Below, piece by piece: positions 4,423 to 37,405 of a stretch of 64,000 bases of DNA. The notes beneath the pieces are model-generated. The model saw only the letters and a program-made list of their open reading frames with translations. It did no database searches and was not told where the DNA came from. Positions within the stretch are counted from its first letter, which is position 1, and each line of letters starts with the position of its first letter. The stretch spans positions 1 through 64,000 of the forward strand of contig JBAXWY010000006.1 in the NCBI GenBank assembly GCA_037128175.1. The letters are read 5' to 3'. A program made the position numbers and the translations under genes. Origin of the DNA: Methanothrix sp. Its GTDB lineage: Archaea; Halobacteriota; Methanosarcinia; Methanotrichales; Methanotrichaceae.

Positions 4423-5364
4423 TCAATCCATCCCCCCTATCCTGTGCTCGTACCCCCTTGCCTCCACCCGTCGCTTTTGGCCCCCCCGCTCCATCCAGAT
4501 CCCTTCCGCCACCACTTCTCCGATCACCGTCAGCCCGCATGCCCGCCGGGCCGCCTCCAGTCCACCTGGCCGCACGGTGAAGACCAGCTCATAGTCCCCG
4601 CCCGCGCTCATCACAAACTCTCGCGCCTTCTCCTGCCCCACCATCTCCGCCAGGCCAACGGTCACGGGCAGCGCTTCATCTCGTACCACAAAGCCCACCT
4701 GGCTCACCTCTGCCAGGTCAAAGAGCGATAGCGCCAGACCGTCGCTGTTGTCCATCATGGCCGTGACTGCACCGCTTTGGGCCAGGGCGCGGCCCTCCGC
4801 CAGGCGCGGTTCGGGCTCCAGCAGCCGCGTGATGAACGGGCTATCAAGCCTGCCCTGCTGCCAGGCCCACAGGCCCCCGCCCGCGCCCCCCAGCGCGCCC
4901 GTGCTGCAGAGCAGGTCGCCCGCCCGTGCGCCCTTGCGCCGCAGCGCCAGATCCTTTTCCACGAACCCCAGGGCCGTGCCCGTGATGGTCAGCTCCTCAT
5001 GCGAGTCCGTATCGCCGCCGATGATGCGCGTGCCGTAGTAAGCAGCGCAGTCCCCAAAACCCGAGAAAAGCTCATCGATGAAGTAGAGATCTGCCTCGGG
5101 CGGCAGGCCCGCCGCGATGAGAACGCCCGCCGGCTCTGCCCCCATGGCGGCGATGTCGCTCAGGTTCACAGCTACCGCCATCCAGCCCATCTGCCAGGGA
5201 TTCATGATATCGGGAAAATCTGTTTTCCGGTGCAGCATGTCTGAAGTTGCTACCAGATAGCGCTCGCCTGCGTCAATCACGGCGCAGTCGTCATTCTCCA
5301 CACCGCCCAAGATCTCGGAGATGCGCCGGATCAGCTCTCGCTCGCCCAAAACATTTCCCGACAT
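4423..5364 (-). CDS. thiL: Thiamine-monophosphate kinase
   Basis: GERELI, DDCAVI, NLSDIAAMGAEP, GGDT, DNSDGL, GGDYELVFT motifs. Confidence 0.95.
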   Translation of the reverse strand: MSGNVLGERELIRRISEILGGVENDDCAVIDAGERYLVATSDMLHRKTDFPDIMNPWQMGWMAVAVNLSDIAAMGAEPAGVLIAAGLPPEADLYFIDELFSGFGDCAAYYGTRIIGGDTDSHEELTITGTALGFVEKDLALRRKGARAGDLLCSTGALGGAGGGLWAWQQGRLDSPFITRLLEPEPRLAEGRALAQSGAVTAMMDNSDGLALSLFDLAEVSQVGFVVRDEALPVTVGLAEMVGQEKAREFVMSAGGDYELVFTVRPGGLEAARRACGLTVIGEVVAEGIWMERGGQKRRVEARGYEHRIGGMD

Positions 5365-5438
5365 GAATGCCTGCCCGCCTTCTTCTTGCTGAATCGATCA
5401 GAAGGCTAATAAATTTTGAGACTATTACTATCAATACC

Positions 5439-6377
5439 ATGCTCGATTACAAAAGATTATTTATTCCCGTCCTGGCACTCCTCCTGCTCCTGCCGCCTTC
5501 TCTTGCCGAGACACGGGTCTGCTCGGAAGGGTGCGATTACACCAGCATCCAGGCAACGCTCGATGCCGCCTCTCCGGGTGACAAAATCGTTGTGGAGAGC
5601 GGAATCTACAACGAATCGCTCCTTATCGGTAAGAATGTGTTCCTGCACGGCCTGGATACGGGCAAAGGAAAGCCCGTGCTCGCGCCGGAAAACGGGCGGG
5701 TAATCCTGGCCGCCAACGGCGCCGTCTTGCGAGGCTTTGAGATCGGCGGACCTGCCGGCTCGGATGACCTGGCCCCTCAAAGCGAGAACTGCACTTTGGA
5801 AGTCATCCTTCCCGCCGGCATTTACCTGAACGATTTTGCCGGCAAGAAGAGCGTCTGCCCGGTTGATGCCGCGTCCTGGAATTCCAGTGACGGCATCAAC
5901 TACCAGTTCAACAGCCGCGTGCTGCGCGGCCGCCTGGGCAACTACTGGGCCGATTACAACGGATCGGATGGGAACGGTGACGGAATTGGCGACCAGCCCA
6001 TGATTTTGAACGAAAAAAATATAGATTATTATCCACTGATAGAGCCCGTGGACAACTACCGAATACCTGATGAAAAGCAGACGGGTGTAGAGCTTATTCG
6101 CGCCAAGGTTAACGAGCCCTTTACCATTTCCCTTCCTGCCAATCCCACTACGGGTTATGAGTGGAAGGTGGATTACGATTATGTCCTGCTCAAACAGGAA
6201 AGCGCAGAGTTTGAGCGAACCTATGTCGAGACGAAGCTTGTGGGAGCGGGCGGAACATCGGTCTTTGTCTTCCTGCCCATTAAGCCCGGCAAGAGCACCA
6301 TCTACTTTGTCTATAAAAGGTCCTGGGAGAATATTGTGGCAGACACGAGAGCCTTCCATGTGGATGTATCTGCCTGA
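5439..6377 (+). CDS. Secreted NosD/CASH-like beta-helix + chagasin (I42 protease inhibitor) domain protein
   Basis: Signal peptide; YTSIQA..., GNYWADYNGSDGNGDGIGD; C-terminal NPTTGYEW, VGAGG, YKRSWE chagasin motifs. Confidence 0.85.
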   Translation: MLDYKRLFIPVLALLLLLPPSLAETRVCSEGCDYTSIQATLDAASPGDKIVVESGIYNESLLIGKNVFLHGLDTGKGKPVLAPENGRVILAANGAVLRGFEIGGPAGSDDLAPQSENCTLEVILPAGIYLNDFAGKKSVCPVDAASWNSSDGINYQFNSRVLRGRLGNYWADYNGSDGNGDGIGDQPMILNEKNIDYYPLIEPVDNYRIPDEKQTGVELIRAKVNEPFTISLPANPTTGYEWKVDYDYVLLKQESAEFERTYVETKLVGAGGTSVFVFLPIKPGKSTIYFVYKRSWENIVADTRAFHVDVSA

Positions 6378-6436
6378 AGCGGATCCCGGGCTCTATATCC
6401 CAAAATAATTTATAGAATTAACGCATACATTTTTTT

Positions 6437-6682
6437 ATGTTTGGCATATTTTCGTTTATAGGATGGCTGATCATAGGAGCTATCATCGGCTGGATAGCAG
6501 GAAAAGTTTGGGTAGGACACGGCTTCGGCCTGATGGGAAACATGGTGGTCGGCATCGTGGGCTCCATAATAGGAGGAGCACTCTTTGGCGGGCTTTTGGG
6601 CACATCCGGCATAGGTGGCTGGATTACATCCATCCTGGGTGCCATTGTACTGCTGGTTATTGCTGGATTTATTAAGAGATAG
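6437..6682 (+). CDS. GlsB/YeaQ/YmgE (transglycosylase-associated) small membrane protein
   Basis: IIGAIIGWIA...GNMVVGIVGSIIGG pattern. Confidence 0.9.
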   Translation: MFGIFSFIGWLIIGAIIGWIAGKVWVGHGFGLMGNMVVGIVGSIIGGALFGGLLGTSGIGGWITSILGAIVLLVIAGFIKR

Positions 6683-6889
6683 ATCAGGGCCAAGCCTTTC
6701 GCGAACGATCCCAGGCCGGGAAGAATATATCATCCTTCTGTCGCAGTAGAAACAAGCACAATCACCTAATCTCTGCCAACCAGAGAGATGGCAACCTGGG
6801 CTACGTCTGAAAAGCGGACTTGCCAGGAAGTATTTATATAGTGATCGCCATCAATTCCTGGTCATTACAATCCTTAAGGAGATTTCAAT

Positions 6890-8185
6890 TTGGCAAAATC
6901 CGATATCAAATCTGAAGCTAGTTCAGAATCCAAAGCCGAGGTGAAGAAGCCTGCGGCCCCTAAACCGGAGGTCAACATCGGCATGGTGGGCCATGTCGAT
7001 CACGGCAAAACCACCCTTGTAAAGTCACTCTCAGGCGTCTGGACCGATCAGCACAGCGAGGAAGTTAAAAGGGGTATCTCCATCCGACTGGGGTATGCAG
7101 ATGCAACCTTCCGAAAGTGCCCGAGCTGTCCCGAACCGGATGCTTACACCGTTGATGAGAAATGCTCCCACTGCGGCACAGAGACGCAGGTTTTACGCAC
7201 CGTTTCTTTCGTAGACTCGCCCGGCCACGAAACACTCATGGCCACCATGCTATGCGGAGCGGCTATCATGGATGGTGCCGTGCTGGTCATATCAGCCAAT
7301 GAGCCCTGCCCCCAGCCCCAGACCAAAGAGCACCTCATGGCCCTTAACATCACGGGCATCAACAAAATCGTGATAGTGCAAAATAAGATCGATCTCATGT
7401 CCCGTGAGCAAGTAATGGAGCACTACCGCCAGATCAAGGATTTCGTAAAGGGAACTGTGGCAGAGAATGCACCCATTGTGCCTATTTCCGCTCAGCAGAA
7501 CCTCAACGTCGATATGGTCATTGAGGCCATCGAGAAGACCATACCCACCCCACCCCGGGACGTCAACAAGCCGGCTCTTCTGAAGATTGCTCGCTCCTTC
7601 GACATCAATCGGCCAGGTGCTACCCCTGAGGCCCTTAAAGGCGGAGTCATAGGCGGCTCTCTCAGCCAGGGCATCATGCATACGGGCGACAAGATAGAGA
7701 TCTGTCCGGGTCGACTCGTGGAATATGAGGGCAGGAAACAGTGGGTGCCCATCCAGACCAAGGTGGTAACACTGCTGGCAGGAAAACATGTTCAGGACGA
7801 GATCACACCAGGAGGCCTGATGGGCGTGGGCACTCTGCTCGACCCCATCATGACCAAGAGCGATGCGCTGGTGGGACAGGTGGCAGGAGAGCCTGGCAAA
7901 CTTCCGCCAGCACGATCTTCATTTACCATGAATATGCGGCTATTGGAGCGCGTCGTTGGAGTCACGGATGAGTCTTGTGTCGAGCCCATACACTCCAGCG
8001 AACCCTTGATGCTCAATGTCGGCACGGCCACAACCGTCGGTGTCGTAACCAGCGCTCGTGAGGGCGGCATTGTTCAGGTGCAGCTCAAGAGACCTGTATG
8101 TGCCGATAAAGGTGAACGTGTGGCGGTTAGCAGGCGAATTGGTGCCCGATGGCGTCTCATTGGCGTTGGCACCATAATCGAGTAG
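6890..8185 (+). CDS. eif2g: Translation initiation factor 2 subunit gamma
   Basis: [34 protein letters not shown]. Confidence 0.97.
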
Positions 8186-17200: not shown

Positions 17201-17608
17201 ATGAGACTTAGAGTTGTCAGCGCAAGAAATGAGATTCCAAATCTCAACCCTAATGAAAAGACTGTTCACCTGGCTTTTCGGGCCAGCAATGTAGACTTCC
17301 TCAATCTGATGCAGAGATGCCCCCGGCTAAGGATGATTCAGGTACCACCCTCCTACCGCAAGACCATGTCCAATGCCATCCAGGTATTTCTGGACATGCA
17401 GGGCATTGAGCTCCTGGAAGGAGATGTTTGGGGCCACCGAAAGGATCTGGATGAGTACTTCACCGTAGACGACACCACCATGGAAGAGATCCGCTCCCTG
17501 GCCGCCAACGGTGCCAGCATGGACGAGGTATCCAACCAGATTCAGAAGAAGGCCAGAATCGGTCCGGAGCTGGTCAAGTACATCGTCAAAAGCAAGATCA
17601 CCGTTTGA
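17201..17608 (+). CDS. DUF1699 family protein
   Basis: VHLAFRASNVD, LEGDVWGHRKDLDEY. Confidence 0.9.
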   Translation: MRLRVVSARNEIPNLNPNEKTVHLAFRASNVDFLNLMQRCPRLRMIQVPPSYRKTMSNAIQVFLDMQGIELLEGDVWGHRKDLDEYFTVDDTTMEEIRSLAANGASMDEVSNQIQKKARIGPELVKYIVKSKITV

Positions 17609-24767: not shown

Positions 24768-24852
24768 GCGGGGGTTGCCAAGCCAGGTCAAAGGCGCTGG
24801 ATTCAGGGTCCAGTCACGAAGGTGTTCATGGGTTCGAATCCCATCCCCCGCA
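24768..24852 (+). tRNA. tRNA-Leu(CAG)
   Basis: GCGGGGG/CCCCCGC-A acceptor stem; CTGGA-TTCAGGG-TCCAG anticodon arm; long variable arm; GGTTCGAATCC; TTAAATA TATA box upstream. Confidence 0.96.
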
Positions 24853-34011: not shown

Positions 34012-34314
34012 TCAGAGGACATAATCCACCACTATCCGGCTCTCACATACTTTGCCGACAAAGTTTGCCACCAAAATGTGTTCAGGCTGCTTCTGATAGC
34101 TGTAAAGGGCTTCTTTGCTCTCGAATTCTGAAACGAGGACCAGATCATAGGCCACGCCCGCCTCCAGAAAGTTGATGCCCACCTCGAAGAACTTAATCTC
34201 CTCGATTTGGGCAGGTAGGGCTTCCAGCTTAGCCTTCAGCACCTTGATATTTGCCGCCTTATCCCTGCCCTCGGCCCATTCTTTGAGCTTGAACATAACG
34301 ATATGCTTGATCAT
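34012..34314 (-). CDS. Dabb (stress-responsive A/B barrel) protein
   Basis: MIKHIVMFKLK, YQKQPEH, VVDY; AGGGAGG RBS. Confidence 0.92.
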   Translation of the reverse strand: MIKHIVMFKLKEWAEGRDKAANIKVLKAKLEALPAQIEEIKFFEVGINFLEAGVAYDLVLVSEFESKEALYSYQKQPEHILVANFVGKVCESRIVVDYVL

Positions 34315-34409
34315 CCGCAAAAGCCTCCCTGCTACCAGGAACAATTCCTCTATTGCGGTCACATGCTTAGTTTATAACGATAATGGTTTTCCCGGTGAGC
34401 AAAGGGCAT

Positions 34410-34527
34410 GCGACTTGTACGCTGCCTGCTTGGCAAAAAGGGCAGCACTGGAGCGAAGAGGAAGAATAAGGAGGGAGGCAAAAGTCGTCTGGATGTAGGA
34501 GGGAGAAAATAGCCATCGACTTTCGCC
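34410..34527 (-). ncRNA. Candidate sRNA with two CUCCCUCCU anti-SD motifs
   Basis: TTAAATA about 25 nt upstream; two hairpins; anti-SD in a loop and in the linker. Confidence 0.5.
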
Positions 34528-34629
34528 AATACACTATACGTCAGTTGACGATATTTAAGGATTTCCGTCAAGAAAGGTCAAGAGCCAGGAATCCTTACCA
34601 AAGAAGATAACAGAAAAGAGCGAAATCAA

Positions 34630-35040
34630 GATATCAGGCAGGCCAGCGCCGAAAGCCACAGCGTCCCTTTTGAAGGAGCCAGTCACCGCAGTGATGGCCT
34701 GACCCTGCCCGAAGCCCGACTAAAAGCCGGAAGGCGGCAGAGCACTGGAATTTGACACAGCGTCCGTTTTAAAGGAACCCGTTCTCATGGGGCCTCGTGC
34801 TCGCCTTACGCCAATGGTTTGCGTCGCGCTCCTGTTTCCCGGTCGTGTATTAGCGTGAGAGATCCCGGCGGATTGCTAGGCCGTTTATGGCATGCAACTT
34901 TCAGCCACCGGATCATTTTACTCACAGGCTCCATAGCCCGAATGCATTGCCACGAAGGCATGCATCTCCTGAAACAGAGCATTATCGGAATTGCGGTTAA
35001 GCCCACGACACGCCCGCCAACCCTTGCAGTACGCGACGAA
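34630..35040 (-). ncRNA. Candidate large (~410 nt) structured ncRNA
   Basis: More than 10 helices with minus-strand G-U pairs; long-range pseudoknot; duplicated 24-nt motif; U-rich tail; no credible ORF. Confidence 0.6.
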
Positions 35041-35041
35041 C

Positions 35042-35064
35042 TATCTATATGATCGTTATAGATA
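35042..35064. promoter_or_regulatory. Palindromic divergent promoter/operator TATCTATA-N7-TATAGATA
   Basis: Perfect 8-bp inverted repeat in an AT-rich gap between two GC-richer structured blocks. Confidence 0.5.
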
Positions 35065-35074
35065 TTTGTAGTTT

Positions 35075-35230
35075 GCGGCTGAGCCTGGGAAGGGATGAAA
35101 AGGAGACGAAGGCACATCCAAACAAGCACTTGCCGTGCGAAAAGACCAGACGGACCAGGTGCTTGAGGTACGTCGCGAACCTCCATTATCTCGCCCTGAT
35201 ATTACCTGCGACGACCAATAATGGGTTCAA
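35075..35230 (+). ncRNA. Candidate ncRNA with a 3' pseudoknot
   Basis: caagcactt/aggtgcttg stem; crossing helices cgtcgc/gcgacg and gaacc..cattat/ataatgggttc. Confidence 0.45.
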
Positions 35231-35359
35231 TCTACTACCTATTCACCTCGAACTACAAAACAGGAGAGCAAACCATTAATTAGCCATGAAGTCATAGTAA
35301 TAGAGCGTGGCATGGATTAAAGAAATGAAATGAAATATGTGAATTTAAGGGTAAGTGAT

Positions 35360-35641
35360 ATGAAGAACTCGATAATATTAGGCTTAATATTCGTGTTGTT
35401 GGCAGGCAGCTCTTTTGCCGTACCTTTGCAGCTAAGCGGGGACTCTGGCCGGGCCATTCTCGGCACAATTGATCTAAACAACAGCACCAACATGGCCAAC
35501 ACCACCAATGAGACACAGCTGTGGAGCTGGGGAAAGCTGCCCATCGGCCATTTTATTAATGCTTCCGGAAAGCTGGCGGCCAACCCCCTCAATGACGATA
35601 GTTTAGTGATCGTGCCGCCACGTTCTGATGCAATGAATTAA
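35360..35641 (+). CDS. Small secreted hypothetical protein
   Basis: Signal peptide MKNSIILGLIFVLLAGSSFA; LWSWGKLPIGH. Confidence 0.75.
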   Translation: MKNSIILGLIFVLLAGSSFAVPLQLSGDSGRAILGTIDLNNSTNMANTTNETQLWSWGKLPIGHFINASGKLAANPLNDDSLVIVPPRSDAMN

Positions 35642-35652
35642 AAAAAGTGTAG

Positions 35653-35726
35653 CGGACCCGCCGGGATTCGAACCCGGGTCCGAGGCTCCGGAGGCCTCTA
35701 TTCTATCCAGACTATACTACGAGTCC
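35653..35726 (-). tRNA. tRNA-Arg(CCG)
   Basis: GGACTCG/CGGGTCC acceptor stem; GAGGC-CTCCGGA-GCCTC anticodon arm; GGTTCGAATCC. Confidence 0.96.
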
Positions 35727-35799: not shown

Positions 35800-36108
35800 T
35801 TAGCTTTCCAGCACAATCTCAATATTTACATTCTTTGGAACCTGGATTCTCATGAGCTGGCGAAGCGCCCTCTCATCAGCATCCAGATCGATGAGCCTCT
35901 TGTGCACTCTCATTTCCCAGTGATCCCAGGTGGCAGTTCCTTCGCCGTCAGGACTCTTCCTGCAGGGAACCACCATCTTTTTGGTGGGCAGCGGGATGGG
36001 CCCCGCCATGTGAACGCCTGTTCTCTGAGCTATCCCCTTTACCTGGCTGCATATATCGTCCAGCATCAAGGGATTAGTGCCGGAAAGTCGAATTCTTGCC
36101 TTCTGCAT
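35800..36108 (-). CDS. rps10p: 30S ribosomal protein S10
   Basis: [19 protein letters not shown]. Confidence 0.97.
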
Positions 36109-36130: not shown

Positions 36131-37405
36131 TTAGCGTGGTATCACGCTGATGCACATGCCGGCTGCGACGGTAGTGCCCATATCTCGAATGGCGAACCTT
36201 CCCAGTTGAGGAATCTCCTTCACCGGTTCAATGACCATAGGCTTGGAGGGAGTAACCATGATGATGGCCGCATCTCCAGCCTTGATGAAGGCAGGATTCT
36301 CTTCCTTGACCGCGCCGGACCTTGGATCCAGCTTGGCCAGAATGGCAGTGAGGGTGCACGCGATCTGCGCGGTATGGCAGTGGAACACCGGGGTGTATCC
36401 CGCCGATATGGCGCTGGGGTGCTGCAACACTACGATCTGGGCCTTGAACTCCTTGGCCACGGTCGGGGGCTTAGCTACCGATCCGCAAACGTCGCCGCGA
36501 CGAATGTCGTTCTTGGCGACACCGCGCACGTTCCATCCGATGTTGTCGCCGGGGAATGCCTCGGAGACTTCCTCGTGATGCATCTCAATGGACTTGACCT
36601 CGCCAGTAGATCCGGCGGGCTCGAAGATGATCTTGTCGTTCTTTCTCATGACGCCCGTCTCAACACGGCCCACAGGCACCGTACCCACGCCAGATATGGT
36701 GTAGACATCCTGCACCGGTACGCGCAGAGGCAAATTGGTCGGCTTCGCGGGCACCTTGAGGTTGTTCAGGGCTTCCAGAAGGGTTGGGCCCTTGTACCAC
36801 TTCAGGTTGTCACTGGGCTTGGAAAGGTTGTCTCCCATCAGGCCGGATATGGGCACGAAGGGTATATCCTCCACCTTGAATCCAACCATCTTGAGCAGCT
36901 TGCCTACCTCTTCCTTGACCTCGTTGAATCTCTTCTCGTCGAAGGGCGGGGTGGTGGCATCGATCTTGTTCATGCCCACAACAAGCTGGCTGACTCCCAG
37001 TGTCCTGGAAAGGAAGACGTGCTCCTTAGTCTGAGCCATGACGCCGTCCGGGACGGCCACGATCAGCACCGCGGCATCAGCCTGGCTGGCGCCGGTGATC
37101 ATGTTCTTTACGAAGTCCCTGTGACCGGGGCAGTCCACCACGGTAAAGTAGAACTTGGCGGTATCGAAGCGATGATGGGCGATATCAATGGTAACGCCCC
37201 TCTCGCGCTCTTCCTTCAGGCTATCCATGACCCAGGCGAACTCGAAGGTTGCCTTTCCCTTGGATGCTGCTTCTTTCCTGTACTCATCAATGACGTGAGC
37301 GTCTACAGCTCCCGTCTCGAACATCAATCTGCCTACGGTCGTCGACTTGCCGTGATCGACGTGTCCAATGAATGCGAGATTGAGGTGTGGCTTTGCATCT
37401 GCCAT
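36131..37405 (-). CDS. tuf: Elongation factor 1-alpha
   Basis: [37 protein letters not shown]. Confidence 0.98.

What the first reader, a model, noticed from the sequence alone, without database searches (positions are those of the whole stretch)
34630..35040. Unannotated ~410-nt highly structured RNA with a long-range pseudoknot and a duplicated domain
Seen (minus strand): the 5' end gucgcg (35037-35032) pairs with 34823-34828. gucgug (35009-35004) pairs with 34842-34847 and gcucuguuuc (34980-34971) pairs with 34828-34838; these two helices cross, forming a pseudoknot. Enclosed are hairpins at 34942-34965, 34926-34939 and a long stem at 34855-34925. The 3' half has two closed domains (gagcac/gugcuc and caggcca/uggccug), each carrying GGYUCC-UUYAAAAS-GGA-CGCUGUG (plus-strand cacagcgtcc...gga.cc at ~34657 and ~34756), separated by another stem and followed by a U-rich tail. 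G-U wobbles consistently favour the minus strand. I see no RNase P, SRP, group I intron or complete riboswitch consensus. Inference: a new large ncRNA class, possibly a ribozyme-like or scaffold RNA with two ligand- or protein-binding modules.
Basis: partly seen in the sequence, partly recalled or inferred. Interest (0 to 1): 0.85.

Follow-up and report, generated by a model that had tools for sequence, protein, structure and literature searches.

The report
Abundant multi-copy structured RNA of Methanothrix
This stretch is a gene for a large, intricately folded non-coding RNA that matches no catalogued RNA family, exists in several copies per genome only in the acetate-eating methanogen family Methanotrichaceae, and turns up at great depth in environmental RNA libraries, so it probably marks an unknown piece of the biology of major methane producers.

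Summary
The region is a real RNA gene on the minus strand (about 35039 to 34611) with its own conserved promoter and a U-tract. It matches none of 4227 Rfam families. RNase P RNA and SRP RNA lie elsewhere in the genome.

It is one of at least 7 paralogous copies here (72-76% identity). A covariance model of the 3' half finds the family in 54 of 74 Methanotrichaceae genomes. It finds nothing in 76 other genomes of the class, and only one marginal partial match (21.3 bits) among 146 genomes of other families drawn from the phylum.

Compensatory changes support a fully nested fold: a 5' domain closed by P1, then two homologous arms, each ending in a four-way junction with near-invariant loops. 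The third helix, and so the pseudoknot, is not supported by the family, nor is the gagcac/gugcuc stem.

Contigs of four metatranscriptome studies cover 34633-35039, single contigs at depths up to 25,000.

There are no terminal inverted repeats, no conserved ORF, no conserved downstream gene and no antisense targets.

Function is unknown. My best guess (about 0.5) is the RNA core of an abundant ribonucleoprotein whose two junction modules dock protein.

The parts
35041..35083 (-). Conserved promoter region. It holds an A/T-rich TATA-like box (35068-35056), preceded by CCGC(A/C)AAC and followed by a near-palindromic conserved stretch that reaches the start of the RNA.
   Evidence: Homology among paralogues starts here. 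The columns are 90-100% conserved in 29 sequences. A 38-base consensus with up to 8 mismatches is found 5 times in the genome, and each hit sits directly before a copy. That this is a promoter is inferred from its position and A/T boxes. The start site is not mapped.
34611..35039 (-). The RNA gene itself, about 420-430 nt in this copy. The 5' end is near 35039-35033 and the 3' end lies in or just before the U-tract.
   Evidence: Contigs of four metatranscriptome runs lie between 34633 and 35039. The strand follows from the promoter, the U-tract and G-U pairs. The exact ends are inferred.
34823..35037 (-). 5' domain closed by helix P1 (35037-35032 with 34828-34823, and 35030-35027 with 34834-34831).
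   Evidence: P1 has 5 of 14 pairs with changes on both sides. A second, deeply diverged subfamily keeps P1.
34842..35009 (-). Long-range helix P2 (35009-35004 with 34847-34842), nested inside P1.
   Evidence: 100% paired in 46 of 46 sequences, with C-G in 34 and U-A in 12 at one pair. The divergent subfamily has CGAGG/CCUCG in the equivalent place.
34938..34988 (-). P3 (34988-34985 with 34941-34938) encloses P4 (34979-34975 with 34971-34966) and hairpin P5 (34965-34957 with 34951-34942). A variable insertion hairpin sits in the loop of P4. It is up to about 95 alignment columns long in other copies and is absent here.
   Evidence: P3 is 99.5% paired, with G-C in 22, G-U in 18, A-U in 4 and C-G in 1. 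P4 is 98.1% and P5 99.8% paired. The insertion is seen.
34855..34925 (-). Long composite stem: P7 (34925-34921 with 34859-34855), P8 (34911-34905 with 34871-34865) and P9 (34897-34889 with 34882-34873).
   Evidence: P7 is 98.8%, P8 91.7% and P9 98.4% paired. P8 and P9 each have 4 pairs changed on both sides. The P9 hairpin is also kept in the divergent subfamily.
34723..34820 (-). Arm 1: an irregular stem (34820-34816 with 34728-34723, 34807-34802 with 34736-34731, 34800-34798 with 34739-34737) capped by four-way junction module 1. The module has hairpin 34792-34778, a UCC-N8-GGA hairpin at 34776-34763 and a CGCUG...CAGUG hairpin at 34762-34743.
   Evidence: Helices 1-8. In the model-fitted alignment, all 7 pairs of helix 5 change on both sides. 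The UCC/GGA stem is 100% paired, with U-A to C-G and C-G to U-A changes.
34625..34720 (-). Arm 2, homologous to arm 1: stem 34720-34715 with 34630-34625, 34707-34704 with 34638-34635, and 34701-34696 with 34644-34639, capped by module 2. The module has hairpin 34694-34683, hairpin 34677-34664 and a CGCUG...CGGCG hairpin at 34663-34647. The 3' end of the RNA is therefore base-paired.
   Evidence: Helices 9-14. Helix 9 is 97.1% paired with 4 of 5 pairs changed on both sides, and helix 14 is 98.4% paired.
34611..34619 (-). U-tract (UCUUUUCUG), the likely archaeal terminator.
   Evidence: Read in the sequence. A T-rich stretch follows the last helix in most of the 29 aligned copies. That it terminates transcription is inferred.

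Best explanation
WHAT IT IS (about 0.9). Window 35083-34611, minus strand, is a free-standing gene for a non-coding, highly structured RNA of about 420 nt. Other copies reach about 490 nt.

Shown:
- It is one of at least 7 paralogous copies in this Methanothrix genome.
- It belongs to a family found only in Methanotrichaceae among the genomes searched.
- It matches no Rfam family.
- The fold is nested. A 5' domain is closed by P1 and holds the long-range P2, P3-P5 and the P7-P9 stem. Two tandem homologous arms follow. Each is a long irregular stem ending in a four-way junction whose loops are the most conserved part of the molecule.
- Contigs of four metatranscriptome studies cover it at high depth.

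HOW IT WORKS (inferred, about 0.5 for the general form). It acts in trans as the RNA core of an abundant ribonucleoprotein. The two near-identical junction modules are docking sites for two copies, or a dimer, of one protein. The 5' domain gives the particle its architecture or binds further partners.

The data do not say whether it scaffolds an activity or titrates a protein away from other targets, as repeated-module sponge RNAs do in bacteria. I put the sponge version at about 0.2.

The multiple old paralogues, each with the same strong promoter, would serve dosage or differential control.

The confidence figure given for this explanation (0.5) is for the whole statement, mechanism included.
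For: Not a known family:
- cmscan gives 0 matches at E up to 10 on 34200-35500 and none over the copies in 4 other loci at E up to 1.
- RNase P RNA is at C37 (220.9 bits) and SRP RNA at C82 (187.7 bits).

Family and spread:
- nhmmer finds 4 full copies, 1 copy cut by a contig end, 2 divergent copies and 3 fragments in the genome.
- BLASTN hits 24 of 24 same-genus genomes and 0 of 16 genomes of other families.
- Model R1 hits 54 of 74 Methanotrichaceae genomes and 0 of 76 genomes of four other families of the class.
- In the phylum draw, apart from the window's own genome, R1 hits 1 of 150 genomes: a partial match of 21.3 bits.
- 46 of 120 pattern loci from named genomes carry the whole RNA. 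All 46 are titled Methanothrix, Methanosaeta, Methanotrichaceae, uncultured Methanosarcinales or, in one case, uncultured archaeon.

Structure:
- 5' domain: 95.3% of cells are paired against 31-47% when partners are slid. 18 pairs change on both sides against 8.3 +/- 1.8 in shuffles (0 of 500 as high).
- 3' domain on the MAFFT alignment: 88.1% paired against 23-43% slid, and 26 pairs against 14.7 +/- 2.4 (0 of 500).
- 3' domain on the model-fitted alignment of 77 distinct sequences: 91.5% paired, and 38 pairs against 15.0 +/- 2.2.
- A second subfamily with a strongly diverged 5' half keeps P1, a P2 equivalent, a P5-like hairpin and P9.

Old paralogues:
- The window copy is 97% identical to a copy in G012 and 84-90% identical to copies in four further genomes.
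- It is only 72-76% identical to its own paralogues.

RNA libraries:
- 24 runs of 17 studies hold part of the stretch.
- Contigs of X1-X4 lie on 34633-35039. 843 contigs were laid from X2, and single records reach depth 25,000 (X2) and 879 (X3).

Not coding, cis-acting or antisense:
- The longest sense ORFs vary from 30 to 128 aa with shifting positions, and 12% of gap runs are multiples of three.
- Downstream genes differ between copies and are often on the other strand.
- Conserved unpaired segments have 0 to 4 near-complementary sites elsewhere in the genome; the 12-base P9-loop probe has 17.
Against: - No protein partner is identified.
- The only recurrent neighbour is a DUF1699 gene directly upstream on the same strand, at 17 of 78 elements. 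In this genome it precedes the RNA at only 2 of 8 of its own loci.
- DUF1699 is present in 5 of 5 tested genomes from genera where the RNA was not found.
- Its model looks like an alpha/beta domain plus a three-helix DNA-binding type domain, not like a known RNA binder.
- The RNA libraries are contigs. By the tool's own caveats they cannot show ends, strand or level, and DNA can be present in RNA libraries.
- Single-sequence folding energy is not exceptional (z = -1.00).
- Shuffle controls overstate significance for related sequences, and the alignment is fitted to the structure it tests.
- A repeat of two modules is equally compatible with ligand binding or RNA-RNA contacts.
Confidence: 0.5

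Rival explanations
1. RNA-only machine. The molecule works without a dedicated protein, either as a ribozyme or as a self-assembling multimer. The conserved loops of the two arms would then make intra- or intermolecular tertiary contacts, in the way reported (recalled, not checked here) for bacterial large RNAs such as ROOL, GOLLD and OLE.
For: - It has the size and multi-domain nested fold of such RNAs, with near-invariant unpaired loops.
- No conserved neighbouring protein gene was found.
- The two arms are homologous, which would suit symmetric contacts.
Against: - No match to any ribozyme or large-RNA model in Rfam.
- I found no complementary loop pairs that are conserved across the family. 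One loop is AAUU-containing in only a subset of copies.
- Nothing here tests catalysis or assembly.
Confidence: 0.15
2. Mobile-element or virus-linked RNA. The copies are spread by, or serve, integrated plasmids or viruses, for example in maintenance, copy control or counter-defence. The chromosomal copies are then remnants.
For: - Copy number varies from 1 to 12 matches per genome.
- The window copy is not syntenic in G020 and G021. There the S10-tRNA locus and the Dabb-U32 locus lie apart and carry no copy.
- One of 7 pattern hits in IMG/VR contigs holds a full copy between a tyrosine integrase (PF00589, 7.7e-30) and a ParA-like ATPase.
- tRNA genes lie within about 0.4-0.6 kb of 3 copies.
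- Two contigs of the assembly end inside copies.
Against: - No inverted repeat of 12 bases or more lies in 34400-35250.
- Homology between paralogues runs exactly from promoter to U-tract.
- None of 6 integrase matches in the genome lies within 5 kb of a copy.
- Recurrent neighbours are housekeeping genes: MoaA-type radical SAM and UbiA.
- Orthologous copies are far more alike than paralogues, as expected for old resident genes.
- Strong purifying selection acts on the fold.
Confidence: 0.12
3. Trans-acting regulatory RNA that senses or pairs. The two modules are tandem aptamers for a small molecule, or exposed segments base-pair with mRNAs.
For: - Tandem homologous modules with invariant loops recall tandem aptamers.
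- There are several paralogues, as is common for regulatory RNA sets.
Against: - No conserved downstream gene exists, and a U-tract ends the RNA, so it is not a cis riboswitch.
- Conserved unpaired segments have only chance-level complementary sites in the genome.
- A size of 420-490 nt with about 120 conserved base pairs is far beyond what pairing regulators need.
Confidence: 0.1
4. In the window's clade, which lacks the insertion hairpin, gcucuguuuc (34980-34971) does pair with 34828-34838 and forms a pseudoknot with P2.
For: - In this copy the two strands can form 10 pairs with one bulge.
- 5 of the 46 aligned sequences (this copy and 4 close relatives) share that arrangement, judged from the rows.
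Against: - Family-wide the helix is 68.0% paired, no better than shuffles (490 of 500), and worse than a -2 slide at 73.0%.
- The same 3' segment completes P1, which covaries.
- CAGGAG occurs twice in this copy, so the match is explained by the local P4 hairpin.
Confidence: 0.08
5. No function of its own: a repeated intergenic sequence, a transcribed relic or a small protein gene.
For: - It is multi-copy.
- The single-sequence energy is unremarkable.
- An antisense ORF of 68-93 aa overlaps the copies.
Against: - Compensatory changes occur in many helices.
- The promoter is conserved.
- Antisense ORF products are only 39-64% identical where the DNA is 72-76% identical.
- ORF positions are not conserved.
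- Depth in RNA libraries is high.
Confidence: 0.03

Closest known systems
Large orphan structured ncRNAs of bacteria (OLE, GOLLD, ROOL, raiA, HEARO).
   Same: - Several hundred nucleotides long.
- A multi-domain conserved fold defined by covariation.
- A narrow lineage range.
- High cellular abundance for some of them.
- No biochemical function evident from the sequence.
   Different: - No match to their Rfam models.
- It is archaeal.
- It has 1-12 copies per genome with old, diverged paralogues.
- Each copy has its own conserved promoter.
- The 3' half is a tandem duplication of a four-way-junction arm.
Protein-sequestering RNAs with repeated modules (CsrB/CsrC, RsmX/Y/Z). Properties recalled.
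   Same: - Abundant and trans-acting.
- Several redundant paralogues per genome.
- A repeated binding module within one RNA.
   Different: - It has only two modules, each a large four-way junction rather than many short GGA hairpins.
- It also has a 215-nt structured 5' domain.
- No CsrA-type partner is known or sought here.
- The resemblance is functional analogy only.
Archaeal RNase P RNA and SRP (7S) RNA
   Same: Abundant, 300-400 nt, protein-binding structured RNAs with long-range helices and their own promoters.
   Different: - Both are present elsewhere in this genome as single copies that pass the Rfam thresholds.
- The window RNA matches neither model even at E up to 10.
MITEs and other non-autonomous repeats, and transposon-encoded guide RNAs (omega RNA, bridge RNA). 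Properties recalled.
   Same: Multi-copy, a few hundred bases long, intergenic, and some copies lie near tRNA genes or an integrase.
   Different: - No terminal inverted repeats.
- No recurrent transposase or recombinase neighbour among 78 elements.
- The paralogues keep a complex fold by compensatory change.

Membership tests
Archaeal RNase P RNA (RF00373) | Match to the covariance model, which includes the P4 pseudoknot and conserved regions | tested here: not met
   No match at E up to 10 on 34200-35500. The genome's RNase P RNA is at C37:17303-17606 with 220.9 bits.
Archaeal SRP RNA (RF01857) | Match to the covariance model (Alu and S domains) | tested here: not met
   No match. The genome's SRP RNA is at C82:2856-3170 with 187.7 bits.
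Any of the 4227 Rfam 15 families, including OLE, GOLLD, ROOL, HEARO, raiA, group I/II introns and riboswitches | A covariance-model match, even a weak one | tested here: not met
   - 0 matches at E up to 10 for the window copy.
- In 5 loci holding other members, the only matches at E up to 1 are a tRNA, an overlapping weak mascRNA hit and a chance HOTTIP_2 hit outside the copies.
MITE / non-autonomous DNA transposon | Terminal inverted repeats at the ends of the repeated unit | tested here: not met
   0 inverted repeats of 12 bases or more (seed 8) in 34400-35250.
MITE / non-autonomous DNA transposon | Target-site duplication and an empty site in relatives | tested here: inconclusive
   In G020 and G021 the two flanks lie about 131 kb apart or on different contigs. 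No clean empty site was therefore available.
Transposon-encoded guide RNA (omega RNA of TnpB/IscB, IS110 bridge RNA) | Constant adjacency to the nuclease or recombinase gene | tested here: not met
   Neighbour clustering around 78 elements gives DUF1699 (17), then synteny-specific housekeeping genes. No transposase family was seen among the clusters annotated. Only clusters of 4 or more members were looked at.
Cis-regulatory leader / riboswitch | A conserved downstream gene on the same strand, with the expression platform overlapping a terminator or start site | tested here: not met
   Downstream genes differ between copies and are often on the opposite strand. The RNA ends in a paired 3' stem plus a U-tract.
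Box C/D sRNA (K-turn RNP) | C box RUGAUGA and D box CUGA brought together by a terminal stem | tested here: not met
   A CUGAUGA is present in most long-form copies but absent in the window copy and its clade. No partner CUGA is seen in the facing strand (read). The K-turn rules are recalled.
tRNA / tRNA-like element | Cloverleaf with the canonical stem and loop sizes | tested here: not met
   - The Rfam tRNA model finds only 35653-35726 and 24768-24852 in the window.
- The modules are four-way junctions, but their spacer and loop sizes are unlike tRNA (read).
- ARAGORN was run on 9 related loci, not on the window.
Protein-coding gene (either strand) | A conserved open frame, indels in threes, and protein more conserved than DNA | tested here: not met
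   - Longest ORFs are 30-128 aa (sense) and 32-139 aa (antisense), at shifting positions.
- 415 of 3349 gap runs are multiples of three.
- Antisense ORF identity is 39-64% where the DNA is 72-76% identical.
Ribonucleoprotein scaffold or sponge RNA (functional class, not a homology family) | Specific binding of a protein to the repeated modules | not testable with these tools
   No tool here models RNA-protein binding. This needs pull-down and mass spectrometry, or EMSA.

The most novel reading that the evidence does not exclude
Methanotrichaceae possess a lineage-specific, extremely abundant ribonucleoprotein or RNA-only particle built on this RNA. That would make it a new class of large cellular RNA machine in archaea, comparable in rank to SRP, RNase P, OLE or ROOL. 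Its two cloverleaf-shaped junction modules would carry out or organise an activity tied to the special physiology of these filamentous, sheathed, acetate-scavenging methanogens. The paralogue set would provide condition-specific versions.
Probability: 0.25. Interest if true: 0.92.

Novelty: categorically new. Interest (0 to 1): 0.8.

Why it matters
- Methanothrix (Methanosaeta) is regarded as one of the largest biological sources of methane, in wetlands, rice paddies and digesters (recalled). It is slow-growing and largely intractable genetically.
- An RNA of more than 400 nt that is conserved across most of the family, kept in several old paralogues and highly represented in RNA libraries of sediments and fresh waters points to a major cellular component that nobody has named.
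- Few large structured RNAs beyond rRNA, RNase P and SRP are known in archaea. A new one with a well-defined fold is an immediate target for probing, pull-downs and cryo-EM.
- Practically, it is an unannotated sink of reads in metatranscriptomes and a possible activity marker for Methanotrichaceae. Pipelines that drop or misassign it will distort expression estimates.
- My claim that it is undescribed rests on Rfam 15. It also rests on eight literature searches that returned nothing relevant and on passages of one paper. Subscription journals and supplementary files were not searchable.

Tried and rejected
- Single-sequence thermodynamics gives z = -1.00 for the minus strand and +0.13 for the plus strand. 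It is not informative.
- RNAalifold on the first rough MAFFT alignment gave only fragments of the fold.
- A helix finder based on the fraction of canonical pairs was far too permissive, because most columns are conserved. I replaced it with counts of double changes.
- Cover in RNA libraries. In one search the bins 35040-35335 and 34559-34632 had depth 0 in all four runs. Bins 34300-34447 also had none, X3 had depth 1-3 at 34448-34558, and X1 had depth 2-3 at 35336-35400. Summed depths (up to about 1.06 million in X2) add overlapping variant contigs and are not a measure of expression. The three 'joints' in table 5 each rest on one contig and probably reflect paralogues with or without variable hairpins.
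- The degenerate 24-base pattern hit 74 unrelated loci that nhmmer did not confirm (all but one bacterial) and 6 unrelated viral contigs. These are chance matches.
- DUF1699 as the protein partner is weakened. Foldseek gave no match with E up to 0.001; the best rows have TM about 0.3 and rmsd about 14 A to retroviral integrase cores. VIA-align gave only Z 5.3-7.5, mostly three-helix DNA-binding domains for residues 88-135 and assorted alpha/beta domains for residues 1-87. That is below the level the tool calls distinctive. A resemblance of its N-terminal RVxS motif to serine recombinases is from memory and untested.
- The antisense-target search with nine conserved segments gave chance-level hits.
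- No K-turn could be read consistently in the P4 region.
- The search of earlier findings returned nothing by place, sequence or words.
The 5' test therefore rests on a MAFFT alignment of the 46 core-subfamily sequences. The 14 divergent ones were left out and folded separately, where 13 of the 14 were used; L030 was omitted.
- Not run: complex prediction, the metagenome-contig scan and the annotated-record searches.
Full report
WHAT IS THERE

On the minus strand of the window lie an A/T-rich, TATA-like region (35068-35056) and then a G+C-rich stretch of about 420 nt ending in a U-tract at 34619-34611.

Upstream on the same strand are EF-1 alpha (36131-37405), ribosomal protein S10 (35800-36108) and a tRNA (35653-35726). 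Downstream are a small Dabb-type protein (34012-34362) and, on the other strand, a U32 peptidase. The gene names are my reading of the translations, not database hits.

Rfam 15 finds only two tRNAs in the whole window at gathering thresholds. It finds nothing at E up to 10 in 34200-35500.

The minus strand folds to -162.3 kcal/mol and the plus strand to -134.6 kcal/mol. Against dinucleotide shuffles, however, the minus strand is unremarkable: z = -1.00, and 16 of 100 shuffles fold as well. One sequence alone therefore proves nothing.

IT IS A GENE FAMILY

- Copies in this genome. BLASTN and nhmmer against the window's own assembly (98 contigs) find four full copies: C6 (the window), C28, C8 and C55, the last cut by a contig end. 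There is also a fifth 5' end at the end of C33, two divergent copies (C31, C4) and three fragments.
- Divergence. Paralogues are 72-76% identical to the window copy.
- Extent of homology. It begins about 45 bases upstream of the RNA, in a block that is 90-100% conserved. It ends at the U-tract. A 38-base consensus of the upstream block occurs five times in the genome, always directly before a copy.
- Insertion. Most copies carry a variable insertion hairpin, up to about 95 alignment columns, at a point where the window copy has none.

WHO HAS IT

- BLASTN hits 24 of 24 other genomes of the genus and 0 of 16 genomes from two other families of the class.
All 46 are titled Methanothrix, Methanosaeta, Methanotrichaceae, uncultured Methanosarcinales or, in one case, uncultured archaeon. 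The other 74, all but one of them bacterial, are chance pattern hits.
- A covariance model of the 3' half (R1) finds the family in 54 of 74 genomes of the window's family, including 32 of 34 of its genus. Ten further genera have hits. Four genera had none in those searched (0 of 7, 0 of 3, 0 of 2 and 0 of 1).
- R1 finds nothing in 76 genomes of four other families of the class.
- In a draw of 150 genomes from the phylum, the only match outside the own genome is a 21.3-bit partial hit.
- These searches used Infernal's stricter filters. They are samples, so the correct wording is 'not found in those searched'.
- Matches per genome range from 1 to 12.
- The window copy is 97% identical to a copy in G012 and 84-90% identical to copies in four other genomes, far closer than to its own paralogues. 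The paralogues are therefore old and separately maintained.

THE FOLD

I collected 67 full-length copies, 60 of them non-identical, with a median pairwise identity of 73% and a minimum of 49%.

5' domain, on a plain MAFFT alignment of the 46 core-subfamily sequences:
- My nested model of 64 pairs in 9 helices is 95.3% paired, against 31-47% when partners are slid by 1-3 columns.
- 18 pairs change on both sides, against 8.3 +/- 1.8 in shuffles (0 of 500 as high).
- 63 cells change on both sides, against 16.1 in shuffles.
- P2 is the clearest case. All six pairs are intact in 46 of 46 sequences, and one pair is C-G in 34 and U-A in 12.
- P3 shows G-C, G-U, A-U and C-G. P8 and P9 each have four doubly changed pairs.

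3' domain, 60 sequences, MAFFT alignment:
- 56 pairs in 14 helices are 88.1% paired, against 23-43% slid.
- 26 pairs are doubly changed, against 14.7 +/- 2.4 in shuffles (0 of 500).
- On 77 distinct sequences aligned to model R1 the figures are 91.5% paired and 38 doubly changed pairs against 15.0 +/- 2.2. That alignment leans towards the structure it was fitted to.

Second subfamily. A subfamily of 14 sequences has a strongly diverged 5' half. RNAalifold on 13 of them still predicts P1, a helix in the place of P2 (CGAGG/CCUCG), a P5-like hairpin and the P9 hairpin.

Resulting architecture:
- A 5' domain (35037-34823) closed by P1.
- Two tandem homologous arms (34820-34723 and 34720-34625).
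- Each arm is an irregular stem ending in a four-way junction with three short hairpins.
- The junction sequence GGNUCC-N8-GGR-CGCUGUG is nearly invariant.
- The last six bases before the U-tract pair with the base of arm 2.

- Right: P1, P2, the hairpin 34942-34965, the stem 34855-34925, caggcca/uggccug, the duplicated motif, the U-rich tail and the strand.
- Not supported: the helix that makes the pseudoknot, 34980-34971 with 34828-34838. Over the family it is 68.0% paired, 490 of 500 shuffles do as well, and sliding by -2 does better. In this copy CAGGAG occurs twice. One occurrence pairs locally with CUCUG (P4). The other completes P1, which covaries.
- Not supported: the gagcac/gugcuc stem, at 68.3% paired with 458 of 500 shuffles as high.

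EXCLUDED IDENTITIES

- RNase P and SRP RNAs are elsewhere in the genome and pass their thresholds.
- Four other family members also match no Rfam family.
- No inverted repeat of 12 bases or more lies in 34400-35250.
- ORFs on either strand are not conserved in length or place. Only 415 of 3349 gap runs are multiples of three.
- The products of the overlapping antisense ORFs are less conserved than the DNA.
- Downstream genes differ between copies.
- Nine conserved unpaired segments have only chance-level complementary sites elsewhere in the genome.

CONTEXT

Around 78 elements the only neighbour recurring beyond local synteny is a 135-155 aa DUF1699 protein (PF08004, E 6.5e-56). It lies directly upstream on the same strand at 17 elements.

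The link is loose:
- The genome has 8 DUF1699 genes, one of them in the window at 17201-17608. Only 2 are followed by the RNA.
- Five of 5 genomes from the four genera without RNA hits still have 3-7 DUF1699 matches.
- Its AlphaFold model is confident (pLDDT 93.7). It is an alpha/beta domain followed by a three-helix domain.
- The three-helix domain's best structural neighbours are DNA-binding domains, at Z 5.3-7.5, a range the tool calls common. Foldseek finds nothing significant.

Other recurrent neighbours are housekeeping genes: MoaA-type radical SAM and UbiA.

Hints of mobility exist but are weak:
- The window copy is not at this locus in G020 or G021, where the two flanks lie apart.
- One IMG/VR contig carries a copy between a tyrosine integrase and a ParA-like ATPase.
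- In the own genome no integrase match lies within 5 kb of a copy.

RNA LIBRARIES

- Twenty-four runs from 17 studies hold part of the stretch; 23 are on record as RNA.
- I laid four metatranscriptomes from four studies. All are kept as contigs.
- Their contigs lie on 34633-35039: 12, 843, 176 and 15 contigs respectively.
- Single records reach depths of 25,000 and 7,512 (X2) and 879 (X3).
- The many variant contigs fit a multi-copy family in mixed strains.
- Contigs cannot show ends, strand or level, and RNA libraries can hold DNA. Expression is therefore strongly suggested, not proven, and the ends are inferred from the promoter and U-tract.

HOW IT PROBABLY WORKS

Shown: a conserved, nested, three-part fold; two duplicated junction modules under the strongest constraint; independent promoters; old paralogues; high representation in RNA libraries.

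Inferred: it acts in trans as the core of an abundant ribonucleoprotein, with the two modules docking two copies or a dimer of one protein (about 0.5). A protein-titrating role is one version of this (about 0.2).

Rivals:
- An RNA-only ribozyme or self-assembling particle (0.15).
- A mobile-element-linked RNA (0.12).
- A sensing or pairing regulator (0.10).
- No function (0.03).

NOVELTY

No Rfam family matches. Eight full-text searches brought up no paper on this RNA. The passages I read in PMC4405575 are irrelevant. Earlier notes of this scan hold nothing.

Papers in subscription journals and supplementary tables could not be searched. A transcriptome study might list it there as an unnamed transcript.

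Noticed in passing
window 34447-34583 (minus strand), just downstream of the RNA: A second, separate repeat of about 110-135 bases, with a TATA-like TTAAATAT followed by a conserved segment ending in CT-rich runs.
- It follows the RNA in the window and on C28.
- It also occurs alone at C4:92204-92343 (downstream of a DUF1699 gene), at C1:136270-136363 and at C67:3764-3864.
- G020 has at least 8 matches, one directly before the Dabb gene.
- No Rfam match.
- One X3 contig of depth 2.76 lies on it.
   Followed up: partly
window 17201-17608 (+), and 7 further loci of the genome: DUF1699 (PF08004) is a multi-copy family with 8 genes here.
- It is very conserved: 2423 proteins with E up to 1e-5, and the best 120 are 84-95% identical.
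- Its confident model (pLDDT 93.7) has an N-terminal alpha/beta domain and a C-terminal three-helix, DNA-binding-type domain.
- It could be a DNA-binding regulator.
- Its N-terminal RVxS motif reminded me of serine recombinases (recalled, untested).
   Followed up: partly
window 35041-35063: Between the TATA-like box and the start of the RNA lies a near-palindrome, ATCTATA-N-TATAGAT in this copy. It is conserved across paralogues. It may be an operator for a dimeric DNA-binding protein.
   Followed up: no
window 35084-35349 and 34447-34590; G020:C1:1381146-1381959 and 1512733-1513747: The S10-tRNA block and the Dabb-U32 block are adjacent here, with the RNA between them. In G020 they lie about 131 kb apart, and in G021 they are on different contigs. 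A rearrangement breakpoint therefore lies near 35346-35349.
   Followed up: partly
L160 (IMG/VR contig) 4806-7501: A full copy of the RNA (5895-6433, minus strand) sits between a tyrosine integrase (6917-7501) and a ParA-like ATPase (4806-5561) on a contig classed as viral.
   Followed up: partly
window 35653-35726; L005:574-647; L031:986-1057: tRNA genes lie 0.4-0.6 kb from three copies of the RNA, including the divergent C4 copy. Seven other loci examined with ARAGORN had none.
   Followed up: partly
long-form copies, e.g. L002 (C28) between the equivalents of window 34975 and 34974: The variable insertion hairpin begins with CUGAUGA, a C-box-like heptamer, in most long-form copies. It is replaced by CUGUUGG in the window's clade, or deleted altogether.
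   Followed up: partly
G000 contigs C55 (start) and C33 (end): Two contigs of the assembly end inside copies of the RNA. The true copy number is therefore probably higher than counted, and the family breaks short-read assemblies.
   Followed up: no
L100:5313-5663 and 4 related loci: A PemK/MazF-type toxin gene (PF02452, 2e-9) lies near five copies, four of them downstream on the opposite strand.
   Followed up: no
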